Positions 29,934-60,070 of a stretch of 64,000 bases of DNA are shown one piece after another; the first letter of the stretch is position 1; each line of letters starts with the position of its first letter. The stretch comes from an uncultured Candidatus Saccharibacteria bacterium. GTDB lineage: Bacteria; Patescibacteriota; Minisyncoccia; Phycocordibacterales; UBA1550. The notes under the pieces are model-generated. The model saw only the letters and a list, made by a program, of their open reading frames with translations. It did not search any database and was not told the DNA's origin. Both the position numbers and the translations under genes were made by a program. The stretch covers positions 50,300 to 114,299 of the forward strand of contig CAZXOE010000002.1 in the NCBI GenBank assembly GCA_964642305.1, read 5' to 3'.

Positions 29934-32900
29934 ATGACAGAATCTGAAAAGAAACTCTCTGATATTGCAAAACGCGAGGAGGAAACTCTTGCGAGCTGGC
30001 AGTCTGCTGATATTTTTGAAAAGACGCTTGAGCAAACTAAAAATGGTGAAAGTTTTGTTTTCTATGACGGGCCTCCATTCGCGACTGGCCTTCCGCACTA
30101 CGGACACATACTTGCAAGCACAATCAAGGATGCGATACCTCGCTATCAAACCATGCGTGGGCGATACGTTCGCCGTGTATGGGGTTGGGACTGCCACGGT
30201 CTTCCAATTGAAAACCTAATAGAAAAGGAGCTTGGGCTTGAACACAAAAAAGATATTGAGGAATATGGTGTAGAAAAATTTAACGAGGCGTCACGCGCTT
30301 CGGTGTATCGCTATGATGCAGAATGGAAAAAGTTTATTCCGCGAATCGGGCGATTCGTTGATATGGATCACTCATATAGCACGATGGATGCAGGCTACAC
30401 CGAAAGCGTATGGTGGGCTTTTAAGGAGCTTTTTAAAAAAGGTCTCGTGTATCAGGGTTTTAAGCCGATGCATATTTGTCCGAGGTGCGAGACAACACTT
30501 TCAAACAATGAAGTAACGAGTAACTATAAAGACATAACCGATATTTCAGTCACGGCAAAATTTGAGCTTGTTAAAGAGCCGGACACATACATTCTCGCGT
30601 GGACTACGACACCTTGGACTCTCCCAGGAAATGTGGCACTCGCAGTTTCTCCAGACTCTGAGTATGTGAAAGTAGCAATAGGGGACGAGAAATATATTTT
30701 GGCTGGAGAACGCGCTGAGGCAGCTCTTTCTGGGAAAGAGTACACAATAGTTTCGCGAATGAAAGGTTCTGAACTTGTTGGCGCAGAGTACAAACCAATT
30801 TTTGATTATTACTCAGAACAGGGAACGCTGGACAATCGCGAAAATGGATGGAAAGTGTACGGAGCAGAATTTGTAACAATGGAGAGCGGTACTGGAGTGG
30901 TGCACATCGCGCCAGCCTTTGGCGAGGACGATATGAATCTCGGCACAAAAGAAAATTTGCCGTTTATACAACATGTTGCAATGGATGGCACAATGAAAAA
31001 AGAAGTTCGGGATTTTACCGGTGTTTCTGTGAAGCCAAAGTCTGACGAAAAGGATGGACATCAAGCGACGGATATTTTAATTATTAAACACCTTGCAGGC
31101 GCTGGCGCGCTTTTTTCAAAAGAAAAAATTATTCACGCGTACCCGCATTGTTGGCGTTGCGAGACACCGCTTTTAAACTACGCGGCTCAATCGTGGTTTG
31201 TGAAAGTACCTGAACTAAAAGATAAACTTCTTGCAGAGAACGCAAAAACATCTTGGGTGCCAAAAAATATGCGCGACGGGCGTTTTGGAAAGTGGCTGGA
31301 AGGCGCGCGCGATTGGGCAATCTCGCGCTCGCGATATTGGGGAGCGCCAATTCCAGTGTGGGAATGTGAAAAATGTGAGGCGAGGGAAGTGTTTGGCTCT
31401 CGTGCGGAGCTTTCTCTGCGTGTGAAAAAATCCGGCAACAAATATATTGTAATGCGTCACGGCGAGGCAGAAAGCAATGTTAAGAGAGTTGTGAGTTCAA
31501 AAACAGACGGAAGCTCAGCGTACGGACTTACAGCAAACGGGCGCGCATTAGTAGAGGAGACTGGCAAGAAACTAAAAGAAAAAGGAATTGACATTATCAT
31601 CACGTCGCCTTTTGTGCGCACAAAGGAGACTGCGGAGATAGTCGCCGGAGCTATTGGTTTTGATACGCGAAAGATTATTGTTGATGAGCGCATCAAAGAA
31701 ATTGACACAGGGGTTTTTGACGGAAGATCAATTGACGAGTATCGCGGACACTTCGTTTCGATGGCGGAAAAATTCACAAAGAGACCCGAGGGAGGGGAGA
31801 ATTTGCTTGATGTGAAGCGTCGAGCCATGGCTCTTCTTGAAGATCTTGAAAAAGAGTACGCAGGCAAGACTATTCTTATTGTCACGCACGAATATCCTAT
31901 CTGGATGCTTATGACAGGAATAGAAGGAGCGAGCATTACGCGCGGAATAGAGATAAAAGACGGCAAAGAAGATTTTGTAGAGACCGGAGAAGTAAAAGAA
32001 ATACAGTACAGCCCATTCCCACACAATGCGGATTTTGAATTTGACCTGCACTTGCCGTACATAGACACTGTGGGTTTGTTGTGTAGTTGCGGTGGTAAAA
32101 TGAAGCGTGTCCCGTATGTTTTTGACTGCTGGTTTGAGTCTGGCTCAATGCCATACGCGCAGTTCCATTATCCGTTTGAAAACAAGGAACTTTTTGAAAA
32201 GAATTTTCCTGCGGATTTTATTGCTGAGGGTGTGGATCAAACACGTGGGTGGTTTTACTCCATGATGGTTCTTTCCGTTGCGCTCTTTGGTAAGGCTCCG
32301 TTTAAAAACGTAATAGTGAACGGAATGACGCTCGCGGAGGATGGGCAAAAGATGTCGAAGAGTCGCAAAAATTATCCCGACCCAGTGGATGTGATCAACA
32401 AATATGGCGCGGACGCTGTGCGTTATTATATGCTGTCGTCTCCGATAGTGCATGCGGAAGATCTTGCGTTTTCAGAAATGGGTGTAGATGAAGTTGTTAA
32501 AAAAAATATCGCTCGCCTTCTCAATGTGCTTTCCTTCTACAAGATGTATGGAGGAAGCGCTGCGCCTACCAAAGGGGAGAGTGAAAACCCTCTCGATCAA
32601 TGGATTCTCGCGCGTCTCGCAGAGCTTACGACAGAAATGACTAACGCTTTTGATAATTATGAACTTGATCGCGTGGTAAAACCTGTTGGACTTTTTATTG
32701 ATGATTTATCCACATGGTATATTCGTCGTTCACGAGAACGCTTTAAGTCAGATGAGACTGTGGATCGCGCGCATGCTATCGAAACGACACGCGTGGTACT
32801 TTTGGAGCTCTCAAAACTTATTGCGCCTGTGATGCCGTTTCTCGCGGAGCATATATATCAAAATGTCGGAGGTAACAAGGAAAGCGTGCATCTTGAAACT

Positions 32901-33425
32901 TGGTCGAAATCAAAAGAAGTAAACTCAGAAATTCTTGCAAGAATGGAAGAAGTTCGTCGAGTCGTCTCTGTTGCTCTTGAGGATCGCGCGAACGCCGGGT
33001 TGAAAGTTAGGCAACCACTTTCTTCGGTAACAATTCCATCTGTACTCAAAATTAATGTTTCTGATGAGGCGATCATCACCGATGAAATTAATGTGAAGCG
33101 TGTAATACGATCAGATGCTCATGATGCAAAAATTGAGATTGATAGAGAGATTACTCCAGAACTCAAAAAAGAAGGGCAGTTTCGTGATGTACTACGCACT
33201 GTACAAGAGTTACGCAAATCTGAGAATCTTAATCCTGCTGATAAAGTAGTGTTAAATGTGCATACTGATGATGATGGTAAAGAATTTCTGGAGTTATTTA
33301 AAGATGATTTAAAGAAGACCGCACTTTTGCTAGATATTCGTTTTACTAGTGATTTATTTGCGCAAGGGGGGAGCGCAAGCATTTCTTTTGATAAATTTTC
33401 TTTTGATTTTACTTTAGATAAATAA
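29934..33425 (+). CDS. ileS: isoleucyl-tRNA synthetase with an inserted histidine-phosphatase (PGAM-like) domain
   Basis: HIGH (PHYGH) and KMSKS present, plus the editing domain (WTTTPWTLPGN). A ~220-aa insert between VWECEKCE and HLPYID contains RHGEAESN...SPFVRTKETAEI. Confidence 0.9.
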   Translation: MTESEKKLSDIAKREEETLASWQSADIFEKTLEQTKNGESFVFYDGPPFATGLPHYGHILASTIKDAIPRYQTMRGRYVRRVWGWDCHGLPIENLIEKELGLEHKKDIEEYGVEKFNEASRASVYRYDAEWKKFIPRIGRFVDMDHSYSTMDAGYTESVWWAFKELFKKGLVYQGFKPMHICPRCETTLSNNEVTSNYKDITDISVTAKFELVKEPDTYILAWTTTPWTLPGNVALAVSPDSEYVKVAIGDEKYILAGERAEAALSGKEYTIVSRMKGSELVGAEYKPIFDYYSEQGTLDNRENGWKVYGAEFVTMESGTGVVHIAPAFGEDDMNLGTKENLPFIQHVAMDGTMKKEVRDFTGVSVKPKSDEKDGHQATDILIIKHLAGAGALFSKEKIIHAYPHCWRCETPLLNYAAQSWFVKVPELKDKLLAENAKTSWVPKNMRDGRFGKWLEGARDWAISRSRYWGAPIPVWECEKCEAREVFGSRAELSLRVKKSGNKYIVMRHGEAESNVKRVVSSKTDGSSAYGLTANGRALVEETGKKLKEKGIDIIITSPFVRTKETAEIVAGAIGFDTRKIIVDERIKEIDTGVFDGRSIDEYRGHFVSMAEKFTKRPEGGENLLDVKRRAMALLEDLEKEYAGKTILIVTHEYPIWMLMTGIEGASITRGIEIKDGKEDFVETGEVKEIQYSPFPHNADFEFDLHLPYIDTVGLLCSCGGKMKRVPYVFDCWFESGSMPYAQFHYPFENKELFEKNFPADFIAEGVDQTRGWFYSMMVLSVALFGKAPFKNVIVNGMTLAEDGQKMSKSRKNYPDPVDVINKYGADAVRYYMLSSPIVHAEDLAFSEMGVDEVVKKNIARLLNVLSFYKMYGGSAAPTKGESENPLDQWILARLAELTTEMTNAFDNYELDRVVKPVGLFIDDLSTWYIRRSRERFKSDETVDRAHAIETTRVVLLELSKLIAPVMPFLAEHIYQNVGGNKESVHLETWSKSKEVNSEILARMEEVRRVVSVALEDRANAGLKVRQPLSSVTIPSVLKINVSDEAIITDEINVKRVIRSDAHDAKIEIDREITPELKKEGQFRDVLRTVQELRKSENLNPADKVVLNVHTDDDGKEFLELFKDDLKKTALLLDIRFTSDLFAQGGSASISFDKFSFDFTLDK

Positions 33426-49030: not shown

Positions 49031-49180
49031 CTAATGGACACTGGCAATCATTGACTTTTCTCAAATGTCCGTTATATAATGGACAAACATTACGAAGTTC
49101 GAGATAAAGGACATATTCTAAAAAAAGCACGAAATAAAGGACACCTTAAAGACACACAATGGACTACAATAAGGACATCA
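49031..49180 (+). promoter_or_regulatory. promoter (TTGACT-18-TATAAT) with a periodic array of AAGGACA / ATGGACA repeats
   Basis: GGACA cores at 49036, 49081, 49109, 49139 and 49173, spaced ~28-45 bp, spanning the -10 box, the leader and the first codons. Confidence 0.45.
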
Positions 49181-50031
49181 AAGACAATAGGCTCGTGAGC
49201 CATACACCGACCAACGGAGCGCTTGTTTTTGGTGCTACTATTTCAAAAAAGTGTGAGCGCCTTGCTACCGCAATTTACCTCGTTACCAATTTTCTATCGG
49301 ACACAGAGCCGATGAAGCCCCGCCTTCGCTCTCTCTCGCTAGAGCTTGTCCGAGACGCGTCTCTCGTGAAAAACGGGAGTCAGGCAATGGAGGCAAATGT
49401 CCTTGAAGCGCTCCGCGCGAATATTCTTGAAACACTTTCTTTGTTTGAACTCGCATTTATTGCAGGCTTAGTATCCGAGATGAACTTCACTATTTTGAAG
49501 AGGGAATACGTTTCGCTTAGGGACATGATTGAGGTGAAAAAAGCATCTCGCGAGTCGCATACAGACAGCATCCTTGGTGACAACTTTTTCAGCGTATCGA
49601 ACCCAGAGCCCCTAAGGTCAGACCTTAAGAATTTGAGCCCAAGGTCGGACCTTTATGCATCCTCAGCAACCCGCACCCCCGCCTCCCCTAAAGGACATTC
49701 TATAGGACAAACAGTTATCACAATGTCCGATAGAAACACAAAAGGACAATCCGTTTTAGTGCATCCGTCTTTGCGAGGAGGTACTCCGACGCGGCAATCC
49801 AGCACCCCATCATCCACTCCCCGCGCAATCACAGATGTAGCAAAAGAATCTCGCCGGTCACGCATTTTAAAACTTGTAAAAGACAATCGTGAAGTTACCA
49901 TAAAGGACATTGCAAATCATTTTGCGGACTTATCAGAAAAGACAATTCAGCGTGAACTTATGTCCTTTGTAGAACGCGGTGTCCTTAAGAAATTTGGAGA
50001 ACGTCGCTGGTCACGTTATTCATTAGCATAG
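49159..50031 (+). CDS. hypothetical protein with a C-terminal winged-helix (DeoR-like) DNA-binding domain
   Basis: C-terminus RILKLVKDNREVTIKDIANHFADLSEKTIQREL. Low-complexity S/T/P-rich middle. Confidence 0.4.
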   Translation: MDYNKDIKDNRLVSHTPTNGALVFGATISKKCERLATAIYLVTNFLSDTEPMKPRLRSLSLELVRDASLVKNGSQAMEANVLEALRANILETLSLFELAFIAGLVSEMNFTILKREYVSLRDMIEVKKASRESHTDSILGDNFFSVSNPEPLRSDLKNLSPRSDLYASSATRTPASPKGHSIGQTVITMSDRNTKGQSVLVHPSLRGGTPTRQSSTPSSTPRAITDVAKESRRSRILKLVKDNREVTIKDIANHFADLSEKTIQRELMSFVERGVLKKFGERRWSRYSLA

Positions 50032-50040
50032 CGGATATAA

Positions 50041-50107
50041 TAAGGCCCGGCCTCGGATACCAGAGCATAACCAAGGCCCGGCCTCGGGTACTCTCGAGGC
50101 CGGGCCT
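50041..50107. repeat. REP-like GC-rich palindromic doublet (AAGGCCCGGCCTCG...)
   Basis: aaggcccggcctcgg ... aaggcccggcctcgggtactctcgaggccgggcctt. Related to the palindromes flanking RAYT #2. Confidence 0.6.
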
Positions 50108-50869
50108 TATTATCCACACCTTACTCTCATCACCACTTGCTTGTTTCTTGCCCCATTTTCTGCTATTATATACCCGTGTGGAGAGGTTGGTAAGTATCGT
50201 TAAATGTGTCTGCATTCCGCATCCACTTTCAACTTCGAATCAGCTGATTCGTGGCTCGGCCATGAAAACTTTCAAGCGACTAGTTTGGAAGTTATCCACA
50301 CATATACTTTGCAGGTTAATCTTGCACCGTATATAATGTATGTAAGTTCAGTGCGTAGATTAATTTCTGCGTTACTGAATTTAGGCGTAGTGAATGTGTC
50401 CGCACATTTGCGCGTCATTAAAATAGAAACTCCCGGCTTACGATAGATTGCAAGCAAGGGGAGAGTCCATTGAAAACTAGGTCCGTTGCGAAAAGATATT
50501 CGCTGTATCCAAGGACTGCCATTGGGTACCCTCAAGGGCAGTCCTTGGATATCTTCTCGCACCGGATCTTGCATAGAAAACATATCTCACAATTAGGTAT
50601 GTTCTCATTGTTTGCTCGCATCTGCATTCTTGTCAGTTGCGAATCAGCTGATTCGTGTCTTGGACATAAAATTGTCCAGGTCAGTTGTCAGATGTATTTG
50701 CAAAGCAAATTTCTATGGCCTCGATCCGTGTGGTCGAAGCACTACCGCATGACCGACAAAACGACAGAATAAAAAAAGTTCACTTAATTAAAGTGTGCAC
50801 GAAAACCTTCCTCAACTGCAAAGACGAAGAGGGAGCACACTGTGCGATTAGAAACATATCAATTTATTT

Positions 50870-53800
50870 ATGACTACAATTATTTCATCAAAGTCTGCAA
50901 AAATTACTGCAGGTTTGGTAGGACTTATTGCTGGTGTTGCAATGTTTGCAATCACAGCTCAAGCCGCTACATTTACAACAAACCTAAAGCAAGGCAGCAC
51001 AGGTGCTGATGTAAAGAACCTTCAAATGGTTTTGAACATGAGCGCTGACACACAGGTTTCAGTATCAGGTGCAGGTTCACCTGGTAACGAAACTTCATAC
51101 TTCGGTCCTGCAACAAAGGCCGCAGTTGTAAAGTTTCAGAATAAGTACGCATCAGAGATTCTTGCGCCAGTTGGTTTGACCAGCGGTACAGGATACGTTG
51201 GTGCGTCAACACGCGCAAAGTTGAACACAATGGAAGGAGGTTCAACAACAAGCATGGTTCCTGGTTGTACTTCAACAGTTGGCTTTAGCCCAACAACAGG
51301 AGCTTCATGTGCTTCAGGAGTAGTGACAACAACTACTTTAGTTCCTGGTTGTACTTCAACAGTTGGCTTTAGCCCAACAACAGGAGCATCATGTGCAACA
51401 GGTGCTGTAACAGCATCAGGTCCAGTATCAGCATCACTTGCAAACGACAACCCTGCAGCATCTGCAGTTATTGCCGGACAAGCAACTGCTGATCTTCTCC
51501 ATGTTGCTTTCACAGGTAACGGTACAATCACCAACGTTAAGTTGATGCGTACTGGTATCTCAGCAAACACAACTCTTTCAAACGTTTACCTATACAATGG
51601 TAACACTCGTTTGTCTGACGCTGCTTCGGTGAACAACACAGATAGCACAATCAGTTTCAACGGTCTTAACCTTTCAGTTAATGGCTCACTTACACTTTCA
51701 GTGAAGGCTGACATCGCAGCAGGTACTGCAGGTCAGATTGTTGGTGTAAATCTTATTGGTTACACAACATCAGGTAGCGGAGAGACAACTGCAAATATTT
51801 CAGGTAACTACATGAATATTGCATCAGCACCATCAACAATGACTGCTGCTACTGCAGCTGCAAACACTGTAGGTTCTACCGCAACAGTAAACGCTGGAAC
51901 AACCGGCTTTACATTCTGGTCATCTCCAGTAACTGTAACAAACCGCCTCGGTCTTCTTACAGGAGCTAACTTCAGATACGTTGGATCAGCTCCCGCAGAT
52001 GCACTTGAGAATATTCGCCTTTACGTGAACGGTGTTGCAGCAGGCGCTACAGGTGTTTTGAACACATCAACGAACCTTGTTTCGTTTGATTTTGCTTCAA
52101 GCCCAGTAACATTGAACACCGGTGCTTCAACAATTGATGTTCGCGCTGACGTTGTAAAGGGCTCAAATCGTACAATTACGATTTCTCTTGCAAACGCTGC
52201 CGACCTCATGATCCGTGATTCACAGCTTGGTGTAAACGTTGCAGTAACAAACAACAGTTCAACAGGAACTACTGTTACTATTAACCCAGGTTCAGTTACA
52301 GCATCCGTAGACTCAACATACAATGCAACAACAGTGGCAGGCGGTACAACCGGCGCTATTGTAGGGCAGTACACATTGAAGGCTTACGGTGAAGATGTAA
52401 AGGTAGACACACTTAAGGTTACTTTTGCTACAACTTCAGCTATAACAACACTTGACAACGTTGCGCTTTACGCAAACGGTGTACAGGTAGGTTCATCAGC
52501 AAACTTCCTCGGAACAGCTGCTCTAACCTTCACTTTGGGCTCATCTCTTATCCTTCCAGCCAATACAACTGTAACTCTTACAGTTAAGGCTGATATGATA
52601 GACAGTACAGGGTCTGCATACACATCAGGTACAGTAGCTACAGTACTTGGAGGTGTTGCAAGCAATGCGCAAGGACAGAGCTCATTTGAAACTCTTTCAG
52701 TAGCAAGTACTGCTATCACAGGCAACACTCTTACTGTAGGAGCTAGCGCAGGTACGTTTGTTCGAACCTCAGGTTTCGTAACATCAACATCCTCACCTAA
52801 TACACAGAATGTAAAGATTGGATCGTTTACGCTCCAAGCTGGATCAACTGAAAGTATTAGTGTAACAAGTATTGGTGTTAAGCCTACATTAGGTGGATAC
52901 AACGGTGGTACAGCAAACGCTATTACCAACTACAGTACACTTACTGTTAAGAATGGTTCAACAGTTCTTGGAACTCCAGTTGGTAACCCAGCTGCAGCAA
53001 CATCAACGTTCTCATTCAGTGGTATCAACATTCCTATTAACGGATCAGTTACATTTGATGTATACGCCGACATTGGAGGCGCAGCATCATCAACAGCAAA
53101 TCCTACTATCACTGCAGACATGGCGGTAACATACCGAGGTGCTGTAAGCAACACAACAACAACCTCAGCAGCTGCTGGCGTTGCTATTGCTTCAGCTTCT
53201 GCTACTTTGGCGGCTCCAACATTGGTGTCATCATCAGCAGTTGCGCAGTATGTAGTAGGTGGTTCATCATTCGGTATTGCAACCTTTAAGTTGTCAACAG
53301 CCGCACAGGGAACATCAGCTACAGTTAACAAGCTTGCGTTCGCAACTACAGGACAGGATGCTATTGTAAGCATTACTGTAGGTGGCGTTACACAGGCGGT
53401 AACAGGATCAGGTGCCTCAGCAACAACAACAATCTCAGGTCTTAACATCAATGTTCCTTACACAGGTGTTGATGTGCCTGTAACCGTTAAGTTCTCTGGT
53501 TTCCTCGGTTCAACAACAGGTGGTTCACTTTCATCTGGTATTGCTTCAACACTCGTAACACTTAGTTACGTAGAAGGAACATCAGGTACAGGTGCAGCTA
53601 TCACTTCTTACTCACCTGTGTCTTCAAACACAATGATGTTGTACGCCTCAAAGCCTACGGTTTCAGGGCCTTCATCATCATCAGGTATCCTTTCATCAGG
53701 TGTACAGAAGATCGGAGAGTTCACAGTTGCGGCTGACACCAACGGCAAGATTGCTGTTGCGACAACCTCAATTACGTTCTCAACATCAACAACTGGAACA

Positions 53801-54124
53801 ATTAACGTAACAGACGTTAAGCTTTCAGATGACGGTGGTTCTACAGCAATTGCAAACTCAAACACTGTCGCTGCACCACTTTCTGGAACAGCATTCACAA
53901 TTGGGTTTACAACACCTTACGAAATCTCAGCAGGTACTTCAAAGACCTTCTCGATTTACGCTAACGTGACTGGTGCATACGGAGCATCTGGAGTAACCTC
54001 ACTTTCAACCGCGCTTACCTCTGCTGCAACATTCCTTTGGAATGATGTAACTACAGGTTCAACTGGTTTGACAGGAACAGGTATTCAGAACTTTGGTGTA
54101 GGTGCATACACTCTTAGAAACTAG
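50870..54124 (+). CDS. cell-surface protein: N-terminal TM, peptidoglycan-binding domain, two Cys-pair repeats, long Ser/Thr/Gly/Ala-rich beta-rich region
   Basis: The N-terminal ~110 aa are paralogous to the 7126 protein (LKQGSTGADVKNLQMVLN...YFGPATKAAVVKFQNKY). Confidence 0.6.
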   Translation: MTTIISSKSAKITAGLVGLIAGVAMFAITAQAATFTTNLKQGSTGADVKNLQMVLNMSADTQVSVSGAGSPGNETSYFGPATKAAVVKFQNKYASEILAPVGLTSGTGYVGASTRAKLNTMEGGSTTSMVPGCTSTVGFSPTTGASCASGVVTTTTLVPGCTSTVGFSPTTGASCATGAVTASGPVSASLANDNPAASAVIAGQATADLLHVAFTGNGTITNVKLMRTGISANTTLSNVYLYNGNTRLSDAASVNNTDSTISFNGLNLSVNGSLTLSVKADIAAGTAGQIVGVNLIGYTTSGSGETTANISGNYMNIASAPSTMTAATAAANTVGSTATVNAGTTGFTFWSSPVTVTNRLGLLTGANFRYVGSAPADALENIRLYVNGVAAGATGVLNTSTNLVSFDFASSPVTLNTGASTIDVRADVVKGSNRTITISLANAADLMIRDSQLGVNVAVTNNSSTGTTVTINPGSVTASVDSTYNATTVAGGTTGAIVGQYTLKAYGEDVKVDTLKVTFATTSAITTLDNVALYANGVQVGSSANFLGTAALTFTLGSSLILPANTTVTLTVKADMIDSTGSAYTSGTVATVLGGVASNAQGQSSFETLSVASTAITGNTLTVGASAGTFVRTSGFVTSTSSPNTQNVKIGSFTLQAGSTESISVTSIGVKPTLGGYNGGTANAITNYSTLTVKNGSTVLGTPVGNPAAATSTFSFSGINIPINGSVTFDVYADIGGAASSTANPTITADMAVTYRGAVSNTTTTSAAAGVAIASASATLAAPTLVSSSAVAQYVVGGSSFGIATFKLSTAAQGTSATVNKLAFATTGQDAIVSITVGGVTQAVTGSGASATTTISGLNINVPYTGVDVPVTVKFSGFLGSTTGGSLSSGIASTLVTLSYVEGTSGTGAAITSYSPVSSNTMMLYASKPTVSGPSSSSGILSSGVQKIGEFTVAADTNGKIAVATTSITFSTSTTGTINVTDVKLSDDGGSTAIANSNTVAAPLSGTAFTIGFTTPYEISAGTSKTFSIYANVTGAYGASGVTSLSTALTSAATFLWNDVTTGSTGLTGTGIQNFGVGAYTLRN

Positions 54125-54318
54125 TTTTACTAGGGACTAAGTAACAACGAAAAGAGTCTTAGTCTCAAATTAGGTCAATGCGTCGCTTCAGAGAAATTAT
54201 CTCGAACGAGCTAAACCCAAAACGAAACTAACCTCCCTGCCCGCCACTGCCTGTCGCTCCTGAATTAGCAAATTCACGTCTTGGACGCAAATGAGCAGTT
54301 AGGCGATGGCAGGCGGGA

Positions 54319-54357
54319 ATTCAGAAAAAGACCCCTTTCTCTTACGAGAAAGGGGTC
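54319..54357 (+). terminator. intrinsic terminator
   Basis: gacccctttctc-ttac-gagaaaggggtc with flanking A and T runs. Confidence 0.6.
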
Positions 54358-54375
54358 TTTTTCGTGCTCAAATCC

Positions 54376-54411
54376 CCAAGCTCCCCAAGGCCCGGCCTAT
54401 GTACATAGGCC
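54376..54411. repeat. 36-bp perfect palindrome CCAAGGCCCGGCCTATGTACATAGGCCGGGCCTTGG (REP-like, left of RAYT #2)
   Basis: Read directly; identical to 55109-55144. Confidence 0.85.
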
Positions 54412-54434
54412 GGGCCTTGGTATATAATACAAGC

Positions 54435-55088
54435 ATGAGGAAGCTCAATTTTTCTATTCATGAATACTACCATCTCTACAGTCGTGGTACCGACAAACGT
54501 ATTATATTTAGCGATGAAGAAGACAAGCAAAGATTTTTACATCTCTTGTATCTCTGTAATACTGACAGCAGTCTAATATTTAGAGAGATACCCATAGGCC
54601 GGGCCTATGAAGAGAGAAAAGGAGATACTTTGGTTAATATTGGAGCATATTGCATGATGCCAAATCACTTCCACCTACTTGTTAGAGAGAAGAAGGATGG
54701 TGGAATCACGAAATTTATGGGTAAATTACTAACATCGTATTCAATGTACTTTAACAAGAAATATAAGCGTACTGGGACTTTGTTTGAGAGTAGATTTAAG
54801 GCAAAGCATGCTAATGATGATAAATACTTGAAGTATTTATTTGCTTATATTCATCTAAACCCAGTTAAGATTATTGATCCAAAATGGAAGGAAAATGGGA
54901 TTAAGGATCGAGATAGTGCTGAGGAATATCTAGAAAGTTATCAATATTCGAGTTACGCGGATTACGTAGGCGACCATCGTAAGGAGAGCAACATCCTTAA
55001 TAAGCGAGTGTTTCCAGAGTATTTTTCAAAGCAGCAGGAATTTAAAGAATTCATAAAAGAGTGGCTATCCTATGGCAATATAGTGTAG
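54435..55088 (+). CDS. IS200-like Y1 (HUH) transposase / REP-associated tyrosine transposase (RAYT)
   Basis: HUH motif MPNHFHLLV and a Tyr region YIHLNPVK. The TATATAATACAAGC promoter is fused to the ATG. The ORF track's upstream extension is discounted. Confidence 0.7.
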   Translation: MRKLNFSIHEYYHLYSRGTDKRIIFSDEEDKQRFLHLLYLCNTDSSLIFREIPIGRAYEERKGDTLVNIGAYCMMPNHFHLLVREKKDGGITKFMGKLLTSYSMYFNKKYKRTGTLFESRFKAKHANDDKYLKYLFAYIHLNPVKIIDPKWKENGIKDRDSAEEYLESYQYSSYADYVGDHRKESNILNKRVFPEYFSKQQEFKEFIKEWLSYGNIV

Positions 55089-55108
55089 CCCCGAGGACTA
55101 CCAAACCA

Positions 55109-55144
55109 CCAAGGCCCGGCCTATGTACATAGGCCGGGCCTTGG
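55109..55144. repeat. 36-bp perfect palindrome, identical second copy (right of RAYT #2)
   Basis: Read directly. Confidence 0.85.
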
Positions 55145-60021: not shown

Positions 60022-60070
60022 ATAAAAAGGACCGCCCTTTTTGAATTCTTAAGGGCGGTCCTTTTTATTT
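60022..60070. terminator. intrinsic terminator
   Basis: aaaggaccgccc-tttttgaattctt-aagggcggtccttt plus TTTTT. Confidence 0.6.

What the first reader, a model, noticed from the sequence alone, without database searches (positions are those of the whole stretch)
50040..50870. ~830-bp gene-free region packed with repeats, hairpins and two DnaA boxes
No credible ORF, though the ORF track has only short overlapping frames. Contents: a REP-like doublet (50041-50107); TTATCCACA at 50109 and 50292; a ~410-bp direct repeat of tctgcattc...gaatcagctgattcgtg (50207-50252 and 50621-50657); a 14-bp-stem hairpin atccaaggactgcc...ggcagtccttggat (50508-50549); and a TATAAT box at 50333. Candidates are one or more ncRNAs, a degraded mobile element, or a regulatory/replication-associated region.
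Basis: seen in the sequence. Interest (0 to 1): 0.5.

Follow-up and report, generated by a model that had tools for sequence, protein, structure and literature searches.

The report
Conserved structured leader RNA, CPR bacteria
The "gene-free" 830 bases hold two conserved promoters and a large folded RNA, absent from RNA family databases, that sits in front of a major cell-surface protein gene across a whole class of ultra-small (CPR) bacteria; small mobile repeats have inserted into its tolerant loops.

Summary
The region is not an origin, a dead transposon or a hidden gene.

It lies in a Candidatus Yonathbacteria-like (Paceibacteria, CPR) chromosome between an HTH-protein gene and a secreted peptidoglycan-binding protein gene. 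Its parts are:
- a REP-type hairpin cluster;
- an upstream promoter (50141-50169);
- a TTATCCACA box (50292) directly upstream of a second, invariant promoter (TTGCAG-17-TATAAT, 50309-50337);
- a ~430-nt + strand RNA core (about 50343-50770);
- a structured distal module that runs to the ATG at 50870.

Twenty-three distinct homologues (234-532 nt) share a multi-helix fold. Twenty-two base pairs show compensatory changes, against 10.3±1.8 in shuffles and 6-9 in slid controls. No reading frame is conserved and no Rfam family matches.

The same box-promoter-RNA-gene layout occurs in 61 of 80 Paceibacteria loci.

The "14-bp hairpin" is a REP copy in an apical loop. The "direct repeat" is two copies of a small mobile palindromic element.

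Best reading: a long structured 5′ leader of a probably highly expressed surface-protein mRNA. Its regulatory mechanism is unknown. An independent ncRNA is the main rival.

The parts
49159..50031 (+). Upstream gene: 290-aa protein with a C-terminal DeoR-type winged HTH. It is syntenic neighbour of the element in all relatives.
   Evidence: Pfam HTH_DeoR E=2.5e-5. tblastn synteny in L001-L015 and in the other 61 loci.
50037..50113 (.). REP-type composite hairpin (three AAGGCCCGGCCTCG arms) directly after the stop codon of the HTH gene. It is terminator-like and a member of the RAYT-associated repeat family of this genome.
   Evidence: The same arms flank the RAYT-like ORF at 54306-55088.
50110..50118 (+). 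TTATCCACA box 1 (exact DnaA-box consensus), upstream of promoter P_up. It is conserved at this spot only in some relatives (e.g. L102).
50141..50169 (+). Upstream promoter P_up: -35 TTGTTT (50141-50146), 17-nt spacer, extended -10 TGcTATTAT (50161-50169). The inferred start is near 50176, at an inverted box-like GTGTGGAG (50176-50183).
   Evidence: The motif TTGCTTG..TTTTCTGCTATnnT-N6-7-GTGTGGAG recurs in most Yonath-type homologues. TTGACT-17-TGnAATAAT occupies the same place in distant Paceibacteria. The promoter is inferred from sequence only.
50209..50267 (+). Copy 1 of the palindromic mini-element (tctgcattc ... CGAATCAGCTGATTCG ... TGGCTCGGCCA), inserted between the two promoters. Most relatives lack it at this position.
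   Evidence: The window has the longest P_up-to-box spacing, 122 nt against 27-105.
50292..50300 (+). TTATCCACA box 2, 8 nt upstream of the -35 of P_main. Preceded by G, it is invariant in the Yonath-type set and present at the syntenic spot in 61 of 80 Paceibacteria loci. It is often a tandem pair, GTTATCCAC-GA-GTTATCCACA.
50309..50337 (+). Main promoter P_main: -35 TTGCAG (50309-50314), 17-nt spacer, -10 TATAAT (50332-50337). The inferred start is near 50344.
   Evidence: Invariant TATATAAT and TTTGCA in all genome-derived homologues. Promoter scan gives 10 of 12 matches. No experimental start site is available.
50343..50770 (+). Core structured RNA.
- P1: 50343-50353 / 50373-50383, a 5'-terminal hairpin.
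- P3: 50430-50433 / 50458-50461.
- Invariant CAUUGAAAACUAG: 50467-50479.
- P4 (long-range): 50463-50470 / 50715-50722.
- P5: 50479-50490 / 50558-50569.
- P6: 50576-50586 / 50596-50606.
- P8: 50732-50740 / 50747-50754.
- Conserved 3' tail: ...GACCGACAAAACGACAGAAU, ending at 50770.
   Evidence: 72-82% nucleotide identity in syntenic relatives. Alignments A2/A3 and RNAalifold. Covariation test. Coordinate map. G·U pairs fix the strand as +.
50506..50551 (+). REP-family hairpin (CCAAGGACTGCC..GGGTACCCTC..GGCAGTCCTTGG) at the apex of helix P5. Homologues carry other REP variants, or nothing, at this apex.
   Evidence: The loop GGGTACYCTC is shared with the REP at 50073-50108.
50607..50710 (+). Variable domain 2 of the RNA, holding copy 2 of the palindromic mini-element (50621-50671). 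This domain is absent from 15 of the 23 aligned homologues.
50771..50869 (+). Distal leader module. It comprises hairpin P9 (50793-50798 / 50835-50840), the invariant TGTGCGATTAGAAA (50841-50854), and an AU-rich stretch to the start codon. The motif lies a fixed 27-29 nt before the ATG in the 11 TGTGCGATTAG-type distal modules (21-23 nt in two TGTGCGTTAG-type ones).
   Evidence: the stems covary (GUGUGC/GCACAC, GCGAAC/GUUCGC, CACGAAC/GUUCGUG).
50870..54124 (+). Downstream gene: 1084-aa secreted protein with a signal peptide and an N-terminal PG_binding_1 domain. It always lies directly downstream of the element on the same strand.
   Evidence: Pfam PG_binding_1. Translation. Synteny.

Best explanation
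The region is the control and leader region of the gene for a secreted peptidoglycan-binding surface protein (50870-54124) in a Paceibacteria (CPR) bacterium.

Two tandem sigma-70-type promoters drive transcription on the + strand:
- P_up, with an inferred start near 50176;
- P_main, with an inferred start near 50344. It has a conserved TTATCCACA operator just upstream of its -35 element.

The P_main transcript begins with a 5'-terminal hairpin (P1) and folds into a conserved multi-helix RNA core of about 430 nt here (234-532 nt in relatives). A long-range helix (P4) closes the core. Several junction and loop sequences in it are invariant. A second structured module (hairpin P9 plus the invariant UGUGCGAUUAGAAA) follows and ends 29 nt before the AUG.

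I read the whole ~525 nt as a cis-acting 5' leader.
- Shown: conservation, the fold, the strand, the promoter motifs, and strict linkage to the gene.
- Inferred: that transcription reads through into the gene. Also inferred: that the leader acts by protecting the mRNA 5' end and/or by binding a protein or small ligand that sets the output of a very highly expressed surface protein.

The TTATCCACA box is a transcription-factor site. DnaA is the obvious candidate, but this is not shown. It is not an origin.

The REP hairpins and the palindromic 'direct repeat' are small mobile elements that landed in places the RNA tolerates: helix apices, variable domains and the inter-promoter spacer.
For: - **Synteny and conservation.** The order FtsK <- | -> HTH gene -> region -> PG-binding gene holds in L001-L009 and beyond. 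Window 50290-50775 is 72-82% identical at nucleotide level in relatives whose flanking proteins are 45-70% identical.
- **Structure.** Tested on 23 distinct sequences with 52 pairs:

| Measure | Observed | Shuffled | Slid controls |
|---|---|---|---|
| Cells forming a standard pair | 94.8% | 90.2% | 29-46% |
| Pairs with compensatory change | 22 | 10.3±1.8 (0 of 500 reach 22) | 6-9 |

  Insertions and deletions fall at helix apices. G·U pairs fit only the + strand.
- **Not coding**.
- **Promoters.** The box, -35 and -10 of P_main are invariant, and P_up is conserved. Both are also visible in distant Paceibacteria.
- **Linkage.** GTTATCCACA sits at the syntenic site in 61 of 80 loci. A signal-peptide/PG-binding gene follows on the same strand in every case examined.
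- **Structure continues to the start codon.**
  - P9 covaries, and the downstream motif keeps a fixed 27-29 nt distance to the ATG in most distal modules.
  - In the Zambryski-like group the whole ~430 nt up to the ATG is conserved in blocks, with a 17-bp covarying helix.
  - No intrinsic terminator lies between the RNA and the gene.
  - No proximal -10 element is conserved in sequence or position (my reading of the sequences).
- **Family breadth.** Weak covariance-model hits (E 0.003-8) in 17 distant loci all fall at the syntenic position and strand. There is a single copy per locus.
- **Expression.** Secreted PG-binding-domain proteins are among the most highly expressed genes in cultured Paceibacteria (PMC10936435). 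Orthology to this gene is inferred, not shown.
Against: - There is no transcript data. The start sites, read-through into the gene and RNA abundance are all inferred.
- This genome uses few Shine-Dalgarno sites (9 of 48 genes). Many genes carry extended -10 promoters 6-9 nt before the ATG, a leaderless style. A weak proximal promoter for the surface-protein gene therefore cannot be excluded.
- The strong hairpin P9 could act as a U-less terminator.
- Sequence conservation in the Yonath group drops sharply after the 3' tail (about 50770). Insertions of 60-330 nt are tolerated between the core and the ATG, as expected for a separate RNA gene.
- No expression platform, ligand or protein partner was identified.
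- The invariance of P1 in the metagenome set is partly an artefact of ascertainment, because the search pattern required it.
Confidence: 0.55

Rival explanations
1. The element is an independent, stable, trans-acting or housekeeping-type ncRNA gene (about 50344 to 50770 or 50841). It has its own strong promoters and ends at the 3' tail or at hairpin P9. The surface-protein gene is transcribed separately from a weak proximal, leaderless-type promoter. The constant adjacency would then reflect conserved gene order or co-regulation.
For: - The invariant promoter, the single copy per locus and strongly conserved unpaired nucleotides are typical of RNP-type or ornate ncRNAs.
- Conservation drops after about 50770, and large insertions are tolerated before the gene.
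- The genome commonly uses leaderless-style promoters.
- P9 is a strong hairpin. Gene-end hairpins in this genome (REPs) also lack U-tracts.
Against: - The RNA is never found away from the PG-binding gene or in another orientation. This holds in 61 FtsK-anchored loci and in the metagenome loci that were selected by the RNA itself and had enough sequence downstream to check.
- Covarying structure and an invariant motif continue to 16 nt before the ATG.
- No conserved proximal -10 element exists. TGCGATTAG lacks the critical -7 T, and AT-rich hexamers near the ATG differ in sequence and distance between relatives (my reading).
- No canonical terminator was found.
- It is not RNase P: L015 has a genuine RNase P elsewhere. 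It is not a tmRNA (ARAGORN) and matches no Rfam family.
Confidence: 0.28
2. The region is a replication origin or a replication-associated region marked by DnaA boxes.
For: There are two exact TTATCCACA boxes within 190 nt, in a large non-coding region.
Against: - There are only two boxes and no AT-rich unwinding element. GC content is 0.435, the same as the flanks.
- No DnaA or DnaN domain was found in the ~31 ORFs scanned.
- The cumulative GC skew shows only a local dip that matches the minus-strand genes, not a global switch.
- The same box lies 22-45 nt upstream of -10 elements of four other genes in the window.
- The box sits at the same promoter-proximal position in 61 of 80 related loci.
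Confidence: 0.02
3. The region is a junkyard of mobile repeats or a degraded mobile element (a REP/MITE cluster) with no function of its own.
For: - REP-type hairpins lie at 50037-50113 and 50506-50551.
- There are two copies of a palindromic mini-element.
- A RAYT-like gene lies 3.4 kb downstream.
Against: - The repeats make up only about 240 of 830 nt and are exactly the parts that are missing or different in homologues.
- The non-repeat parts are the conserved ones, and they covary.
- The shortest homologue (L094, 234 nt) has no repeats at all but keeps the core.
Confidence: 0.03
4. The region is a frameshifted or unannotated protein-coding gene.
For: ORFs of 100 and 103 aa overlap the region.
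Against: - Neither ORF has a Pfam hit.
- The window's 116-codon open frame aligns to fragments in different frames in the relatives.
- L109 and L110 have no open stretch of 40 codons or more on either strand.
- Length varies from 234 to 532 nt through non-triplet indels at hairpin apices.
- Substitutions are compensatory in stems.
Confidence: 0.01

Closest known systems
Long structured 5' untranslated regions of highly expressed envelope or S-layer mRNAs that act as 5' stabilisers (E. coli ompA leader, Lactobacillus slpA leader, B. subtilis aprE leader). Named from my own knowledge of the literature.
   Same: - A strong promoter or promoters.
- A stem-loop at the very 5' end of the transcript (P1 starts 0-1 nt from the inferred start).
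- The downstream gene encodes an abundant secreted or surface protein.
- It acts in cis.
   Different: - The known examples are 50-150 nt simple hairpins with little sequence conservation.
- This one is 230-560 nt, multi-domain, and has invariant unpaired nucleotides conserved across a bacterial class. That implies a specific partner or tertiary fold, not just a protective hairpin.
- Stabilisation was not tested here.
Large 'ornate' bacterial RNAs of unknown or recently emerging function (OLE, GOLLD, ROOL, HEARO/omega RNA, raiA motif RNA).
   Same: - Size class of several hundred nucleotides.
- Many helices with covariation.
- Highly conserved junctions.
- Variable-length insertions at helix tips.
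- Restricted to one lineage.
   Different: - No match to any of their Rfam models, even at E<=10, including for compact homologues.
- The genomic context differs: it is not in prophages, not next to IscB/TnpB, and not next to oapA.
- It is always fused upstream of one gene family.
Riboswitches and protein-binding leaders upstream of cell-wall genes (for example the ydaO/yuaA c-di-AMP riboswitch, or ribosomal-protein leaders).
   Same: - A conserved structured element in the 5' region of a cell-envelope gene.
- A closing long-range helix (P4) around a conserved core.
- Possible mutually exclusive pairings at the 3' side: the CUUCGA segment can pair upstream (P4) or downstream (GGUCGAAG).
   Different: - No Rfam match.
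- The core is several times larger than typical aptamers.
- No terminator or start-codon-sequestering platform adjoins the core.
- 60-330 nt of partly variable sequence separates the core from the ATG.
- The ligand or protein partner is unknown.
REP/BIME elements and REP-associated tyrosine transposases (RAYTs).
   Same: - Short GC-rich imperfect palindromes are scattered in intergenic DNA, sometimes as doublets.
- A Y1-transposase gene is flanked by the same hairpins (54387-54418 and 55111-55142).
   Different: - The transposase scores below the NCBIfam cut-off (44 against 80 bits).
- Some copies sit inside an RNA element and inside a coding linker (49614-49653).
- A second palindromic element is nested inside REP arms in relatives.
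DnaA acting as a transcription factor at single or paired DnaA boxes near promoters (dnaA autoregulation; the B. subtilis DnaA regulon). Named from my own knowledge.
   Same: - An exact TTATCCACA consensus.
- One or two boxes in tandem about one helical turn apart, just upstream of the -35 element.
- Also present inverted at the start of P_up.
   Different: - Binding by DnaA is untested.
- In this genome the box marks several surface-protein promoters, which is not a known DnaA regulon theme.
- Another factor could recognise it.

Membership tests
Bacterial replication origin (oriC) | A cluster of several DnaA boxes (usually 3-4 or more) with an adjacent AT-rich unwinding element | tested here: not met
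   Two boxes lie 182 nt apart. There is no AT-rich tract, and GC content is 0.435, like the flanks.
Bacterial replication origin (oriC) | Adjacency to dnaA/dnaN and a global GC-skew switch | tested here: not met
   No DnaA or DnaN domain was found among the ~31 ORFs scanned. The skew shows only a local dip over the minus-strand genes.
Conserved structured RNA (generic criterion) | Homologues keep base pairs through compensatory substitutions more often than controls do | tested here: met
   22 of 52 pairs show double changes, against 10.3±1.8 in shuffles (0 of 500 reach 22) and 6-9 in slid controls. 94.8% of cells are paired.
Any Rfam 15 family (including RNase P, tmRNA, SRP, 6S, OLE, GOLLD, ROOL, HEARO, raiA, ydaO) | A score at or near the family's covariance-model gathering threshold | tested here: not met
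   No hits in the 64-kb window at gathering score. At E<=10 only chance hairpin matches appear, for the window region and for compact homologues L094 and L065. ARAGORN finds no tmRNA. L015 has RNase P elsewhere.
Sigma-70-type promoter | -35 and -10 hexamers with 16-18-nt spacing, conserved in position among relatives | tested here: met
   P_main is TTGCAG-17-TATAAT and invariant. P_up is TTGTTT-17-TGcTATTAT and conserved. Activity was not tested.
5' leader (cis-regulatory RNA) of the downstream gene | Constant linkage and orientation to one gene family, with no terminator or conserved promoter in between | tested here: met
   The element is adjacent and co-oriented in every locus examined. No intrinsic terminator was found. 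Covarying structure runs to 30 nt before the ATG.
5' leader (cis-regulatory RNA) of the downstream gene | A continuous transcript from the leader into the coding sequence | not testable with these tools
   No transcriptome data are available here.
Riboswitch | A conserved aptamer plus an adjoining expression platform (terminator/antiterminator or start-site sequestration) | tested here: inconclusive
   A conserved core closed by P4 exists. Alternative pairings of the CUUCGA segment are possible. No terminator or start-codon-masking helix was found.
Riboswitch | Specific ligand binding | not testable with these tools
   This needs in-line probing, ITC or a similar assay.
REP/BIME repeats with RAYT | Multiple copies of a short imperfect palindrome in intergenic DNA | tested here: met
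   7 arm matches against 0.14 expected. Further variants lie at 49614-49653, 50534-50546 and 60027-60063. REP variants occupy the same RNA apex in relatives.
REP/BIME repeats with RAYT | A Y1 (IS200-like) REP-associated transposase gene flanked by the repeats | tested here: inconclusive
   The ORF at 54306-55088 hits Pfam Y1_Tnp at 40.9 bits (above its cut-off of 23). It hits NCBIfam REP_Tyr_transpos at 44 bits (below its cut-off of 80). REP hairpins flank it.
Protein-coding gene | A reading frame conserved among homologues | tested here: not met
   frames are not conserved, and two homologues have no open stretch of 40 codons or more.

The most novel reading that the evidence does not exclude
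The core (about 50343-50770) is a new class of large functional RNA specific to Paceibacteria, not a passive stabiliser. Two forms of this reading remain open.

- It could be a riboswitch-like or protein-sensing regulator with an unusually big, multi-junction sensor.
- It could be an IRES-like ribosome-recruiting leader. This organism mostly uses leaderless, Shine-Dalgarno-free mRNAs (9 of 48 genes with an SD), so an internal start codon 525 nt into a transcript may need a dedicated recruiting structure.

Either would be a new RNA mechanism in ultra-small symbiotic bacteria, controlling their major surface/attachment protein.
Probability: 0.2. Interest if true: 0.85.

Novelty: new variant of a known kind. 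Interest (0 to 1): 0.62.

Why it matters
CPR/Patescibacteria make up a large share of bacterial diversity, yet almost nothing is known about their RNA biology or gene regulation.

- **A new RNA family.** This locus offers a class-wide, covariation-supported structured RNA of several hundred nucleotides with no Rfam family.
- **A promoter architecture.** Tandem promoters plus a DnaA-box-like operator recur at surface-protein genes.
- **A link to attachment.** The RNA is tied to the secreted peptidoglycan-binding proteins that are among the most expressed genes in cultured Paceibacteria and are suspected to mediate host attachment.
- **A regulatory handle.** If the RNA is a sensor or a ribosome-recruiting leader, it would be a direct handle on how these symbionts control their cell surface.
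- **A practical lesson.** REP and MITE insertions into permissive RNA loops can disguise a functional RNA as "repeat junk". The compact 234-nt homologues give a good starting construct for structure probing.

Tried and rejected
- **Rfam.** Gathering-score scan of the whole window; E<=10 scans of the region and of compact or distant homologues. Only chance miRNA/snoRNA-like hairpin hits appeared.
- **Known housekeeping RNAs.** ARAGORN found no tRNA or tmRNA. I considered RNase P because of superficial resemblances (CCCGGCUUA, ACGACAGAA). I rejected it because there is no covariance-model hit and L015 carries a true RNase P elsewhere in the same locus. tmRNA, SRP and 6S were considered from memory of their motifs and rejected for lack of any matching feature.
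- **Sequence-only extension.** Iterated nhmmer with the 5' domain did not reach beyond the Yonath group. A covariance model gave only weak hits, but they were positionally consistent.
- **oriC.** Rejected (see rivals).
- **Coding.** Rejected.
- **Pairing of the two 16-nt palindromes.** This appears as a long-range helix in the MFE fold of the full 839 nt. I rejected it because copy 1 lies upstream of the main start site and is absent in relatives.
- **Pairing of the 3' tail AUGACC with GGUCAU of the core.** Rejected because the core side covaries with the P4 partner instead.
- **TGTGCGATTAGAAA pairing with the P6 strand AAUCGCA.** Rejected because the window's own P6 has a different sequence while the motif is unchanged.
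- **TGCGATTAG as an extended -10 element.** Judged unlikely because it lacks the -7 T.
- **Helix P7 against P8 at the 3' side.** This could not be resolved because there is too little variation.
- **Literature.** Five searches found no description of this RNA or of the box in CPR.
- **Not used.** The protein-homology and structure-prediction tools were not needed.


Full report
**Where we are.** FtsK-anchored loci from species-level genomes place the window in a Candidatus Yonathbacteria-like member of the Paceibacteria (Parcubacteria, CPR); FtsK is up to 85% identical.
- The finding lies between a 290-aa protein with a C-terminal DeoR-type HTH (49159-50031) and a 1084-aa secreted protein with an N-terminal PG_binding_1 domain (50870-54124).
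- Upstream on the other strand are FtsK, RecA and EF-P.
- Downstream are a RAYT-like Y1 transposase ORF and large surface proteins.
- This gene order is kept in L001-L009 and, for the HTH gene / gap / PG-binding gene, far beyond.

**Checking the observation.** All the listed features exist, with coordinates off by at most 1-2 nt.
- The REP-like arm AAGGCCCGGCCTCG occurs three times at 50042-50108. It occurs four more times (2 mismatches) as two hairpins flanking the RAYT-like ORF: 7 matches against 0.14 expected.
- TTATCCACA is at 50110 and 50292. The window has 8 exact copies against 0.47 expected.
- The "410-bp direct repeat" is two ~40-60-nt copies 404 nt apart. Each contains the perfect palindrome CGAATCAGCTGATTCG.
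- The hairpin at 50506-50551 has 19-nt arms.
- TATAAT is at 50332-50337.
- As RNA, the + strand of 50032-50870 folds 90 kcal/mol better than shuffles (z = -18.6). The - strand gives z = -9.2.
- Rfam finds nothing in the whole window, and nothing but chance hairpin matches at E<=10.

**A conserved RNA.** blastn and nhmmer show that window 50290-50775 is conserved at 72-82% nucleotide identity at the syntenic position in eight species-level relatives. The flanking proteins in those relatives are much more diverged.
- The alignment shows an invariant GAGTTATCCACA - N8 - TTGCAG - N17 - TATAAT. After that come alternating invariant blocks and variable stems with obvious compensatory changes.
- One metagenome scan used a pattern built on the -10 box and the first hairpin. 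It added 35 loci, giving 28 distinct versions from 234 to 532 nt from the -10 box to the conserved 3' block.
- On a 23-sequence alignment I tested a curated structure (P1, P3, P4, P5, P6, P8; 52 pairs), with these results:

| Measure | Observed | Shuffled | Slid controls |
|---|---|---|---|
| Cells forming a standard pair | 94.8% | 90.2% | 29-46% |
| Pairs changed on both sides | 22 | 10.3±1.8 (0 of 500 reach 22) | 6-9 |

- P1's outer stem never varies. That says nothing either way, and in the metagenome sequences it is partly forced by the search pattern. The support comes from P3-P6.
- Conserved G·U pairs would be C·A on the other strand, so the RNA is on the + strand.
- Length differences are insertions at helix tips. 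The minimal versions (L094 234 nt, L092 246 nt) fold into the same core.
- No reading frame is conserved.
- In window coordinates the helices are as follows:

| Helix | 5' arm | 3' arm |
|---|---|---|
| P1 | 50343-50353 | 50373-50383 |
| P3 | 50430-50433 | 50458-50461 |
| P4 | 50463-50470 | 50715-50722 |
| P5 | 50479-50490 | 50558-50569 |
| P6 | 50576-50586 | 50596-50606 |
| P8 | 50732-50740 | 50747-50754 |

- The 3' tail ends at 50770.
- At the 3' side, a hairpin CUUCGAYC/GGUCGAAG (P7) competes with P4 and P8. The data cannot decide between them.

**What the repeats are.**
- The 50506-50551 hairpin sits exactly at the apex of P5. It shares its loop (GGGTACYCTC) and AAGG...CCTT arms with the REP at 50073-50108. 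Homologues carry other REP variants, other inserts or nothing at that apex.
- Copy 2 of the palindromic element lies in a variable domain (50607-50710) that most homologues lack.
- Copy 1 lies between the two promoters, where the window has the longest spacer of all relatives.
- The same palindromic element occurs in other places in relatives, often nested inside REP arms.
- These are therefore small mobile elements in permissive sites, not parts of the conserved RNA.

**Promoters and the "DnaA boxes".**
- Box 2 (50292-50300) lies 8 nt upstream of the -35 of the invariant promoter. In many relatives it is a tandem pair, GTTATCCAC-GA-GTTATCCACA.
- A second conserved promoter lies about 170 nt upstream (TTGTTT-17-TGcTATTAT, 50141-50169). 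An inverted box-like GTGTGGAG sits at its inferred start.
- Distant Paceibacteria have TTGACT-17-TGnAATAAT at the same place.
- GTTATCCACA is found at the syntenic site in 61 of 80 loci, usually as the only copy in ~20 kb.
- In the window, the box also precedes the -10 elements of four other genes. Those I scanned encode large secreted proteins and a mechanosensitive channel.
- With no dnaA/dnaN among the ORFs scanned, no AT-rich element and no skew switch, an origin is excluded for practical purposes. The box is a transcription-factor site.
- DnaA is the natural candidate from the consensus, but this is untested.
- The neighbouring HTH protein seems to have its own repeated motif, ATAAAGGACA, at its own promoter.

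**Leader or separate RNA gene?** Evidence for a leader:
- The element is always directly upstream of, and co-oriented with, a signal-peptide/PG-binding gene. This holds in the FtsK-anchored loci and in those RNA-anchored metagenome loci that had enough downstream sequence to check.
- No intrinsic terminator follows the core.
- RNA-level selection continues beyond the core:
  - Hairpin P9 keeps pairing with three different stem sequences.
  - P9 is followed by the invariant TGTGCGATTAGAAA, at a fixed 27-29 nt from the ATG in 11 of 13 distal modules.
  - Another subgroup (L007 type) has a different but also covarying distal module.
- In the Zambryski-like group the whole ~430 nt to the ATG is conserved in blocks. 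It has 38 predicted pairs, 24 of them with compensatory changes, including a 17-bp helix.
- No proximal -10 element is conserved.

Evidence against a leader:
- The genome has few SD sites (9 of 48 genes) and often uses leaderless-type promoters.
- P9 could be a U-less terminator.
- Insertions of 60-330 nt are tolerated between the core and the gene.

I put the leader model at about 0.55 and an independent ncRNA at about 0.28.

**Breadth and identity.**
- A covariance model of the 5' domain finds one copy per locus.
- In 71 more distant loci it gives only weak hits. However, 17 of the 22 hits fall at the syntenic position and strand, which covers about 1.5% of the searched sequence.
- Together with the shared motif YYUUGAMAAY..AUA and the shared promoter architecture, this suggests one old, fast-evolving family across Paceibacteria.
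- It matches no Rfam family, even for compact versions. It is not RNase P.
- I found no description in the searchable literature.
- One paper reports that secreted PG-binding-domain proteins are among the most highly expressed genes of cultured Paceibacteria (PMC10936435). That fits the strong tandem promoters. Orthology to this gene is my inference.

**Mechanism, with its status.**
- Shown: a conserved fold, the strand, conserved promoter motifs, linkage to the gene, and mobile inserts at permissive sites.
- Inferred: the start sites, read-through into the gene, and function.
- The 5'-terminal P1 hairpin is what a 5'-end protective stabiliser looks like.
- The invariant junction and loop sequences are CAUUGAAAACUAG, the P6 loop ACACAA, the P3 loop GGCUUACGAUAGAUUGCAAGC and the 3' tail. 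Together with the closing helix P4, they argue for a specific tertiary fold or bound partner. I therefore expect a regulatory role beyond stabilisation, but cannot name the signal.

**Verdict.** This is a real and interesting feature: a new, class-wide structured leader/ncRNA family with a distinctive promoter-operator architecture, overlaid by REP-type insertions. It is a new variant of a known kind (structured cis-regulatory/leader RNA). There is a modest chance (about 0.2) that it is a new type of sensor or ribosome-recruiting RNA.

Noticed in passing
window 54306-55142: A RAYT-like Y1 transposase ORF (Pfam Y1_Tnp 40.9 bits; NCBIfam REP_Tyr_transpos 44 bits, below its cut-off of 80) is flanked by REP hairpins at 54387-54418 and 55111-55142. 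The gene is syntenic in L001-L009, so it looks like a resident REP/RAYT system rather than a recent insertion.
   Followed up: partly
window 49614-49653: Two REP-like palindromes (AAGGTCAGACCTT and AAGGTCGGACCTT) lie inside the HTH-protein ORF, in its disordered linker. There they encode ..LRSDLK.. and ..PRSDLY... REP insertion into coding sequence appears to be tolerated.
   Followed up: no
window 49066-49177: ATAA[A/T/C]GGACA is repeated 4-5 times at ~30-nt spacing in the promoter/5' UTR of the HTH gene (at 49066-, 49076, 49104, 49134 and 49168). Matches with up to one mismatch number 15 in the window against 5.2 expected, and they cluster here. This is a candidate autoregulatory operator array for the HTH protein.
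   Followed up: partly
window 23503, 55153, 59388, 62600: TTATCCACA lies 22-45 nt upstream of -10-like boxes of other genes. These are a 1802-aa BNR/fn3/Ig protein, a 213-aa plus 1155-aa beta-helix/LTD pair, a 168-aa protein and a mechanosensitive-channel protein. This may be a surface/envelope regulon sharing the box.
   Followed up: partly
whole window (48 gene starts): Only 9 of 48 genes have an SD-like motif. Many have an extended -10 element (TGnTAnnnT) 6-9 nt before the ATG, for example at 29934, 37825, 39118 and 61959. This suggests widespread leaderless mRNAs.
   Followed up: partly
window 29934-33425: The isoleucyl-tRNA synthetase-like protein carries an inserted histidine-phosphatase (His_Phos_1) domain at residues 505-671.
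   Followed up: no
whole window: There are no tRNA genes and no Rfam family at gathering score in 64 kb of an otherwise housekeeping-rich chromosome segment.
   Followed up: no
L003 8521-8534 and 9369-9382; L085, L098, L109 (regions printed): The palindromic element TTCGAATCAGCTGATTCG..GGCTYGGMC..TAGAC is nested inside REP arms (AAGGTCNGAMC ... GGTCGGACCTT) in several relatives. This suggests a composite mini mobile element family in Yonathbacteria.
   Followed up: partly
L094 5612-5845 and its upstream region: This is the shortest homologue (234 nt): it lacks P5 and both variable domains. The sequence just upstream of its box is identical to the window's (CTAGTTTGGAAGTTATCCACA), while the RNA itself resembles L007. 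This may reflect recombination between lineages.
   Followed up: no
alignment A6 columns 255-271 / 363-379 (L065, L064, L080, L028, L056, L042, L015, L038): Zambryski-like Paceibacteria leaders contain a 17-bp long-range helix with many compensatory changes. It encloses a conserved GUGUCGAA..UCGGC junction. Its relation to the P4/P7/P8 region of the window's RNA is unresolved.
   Followed up: partly
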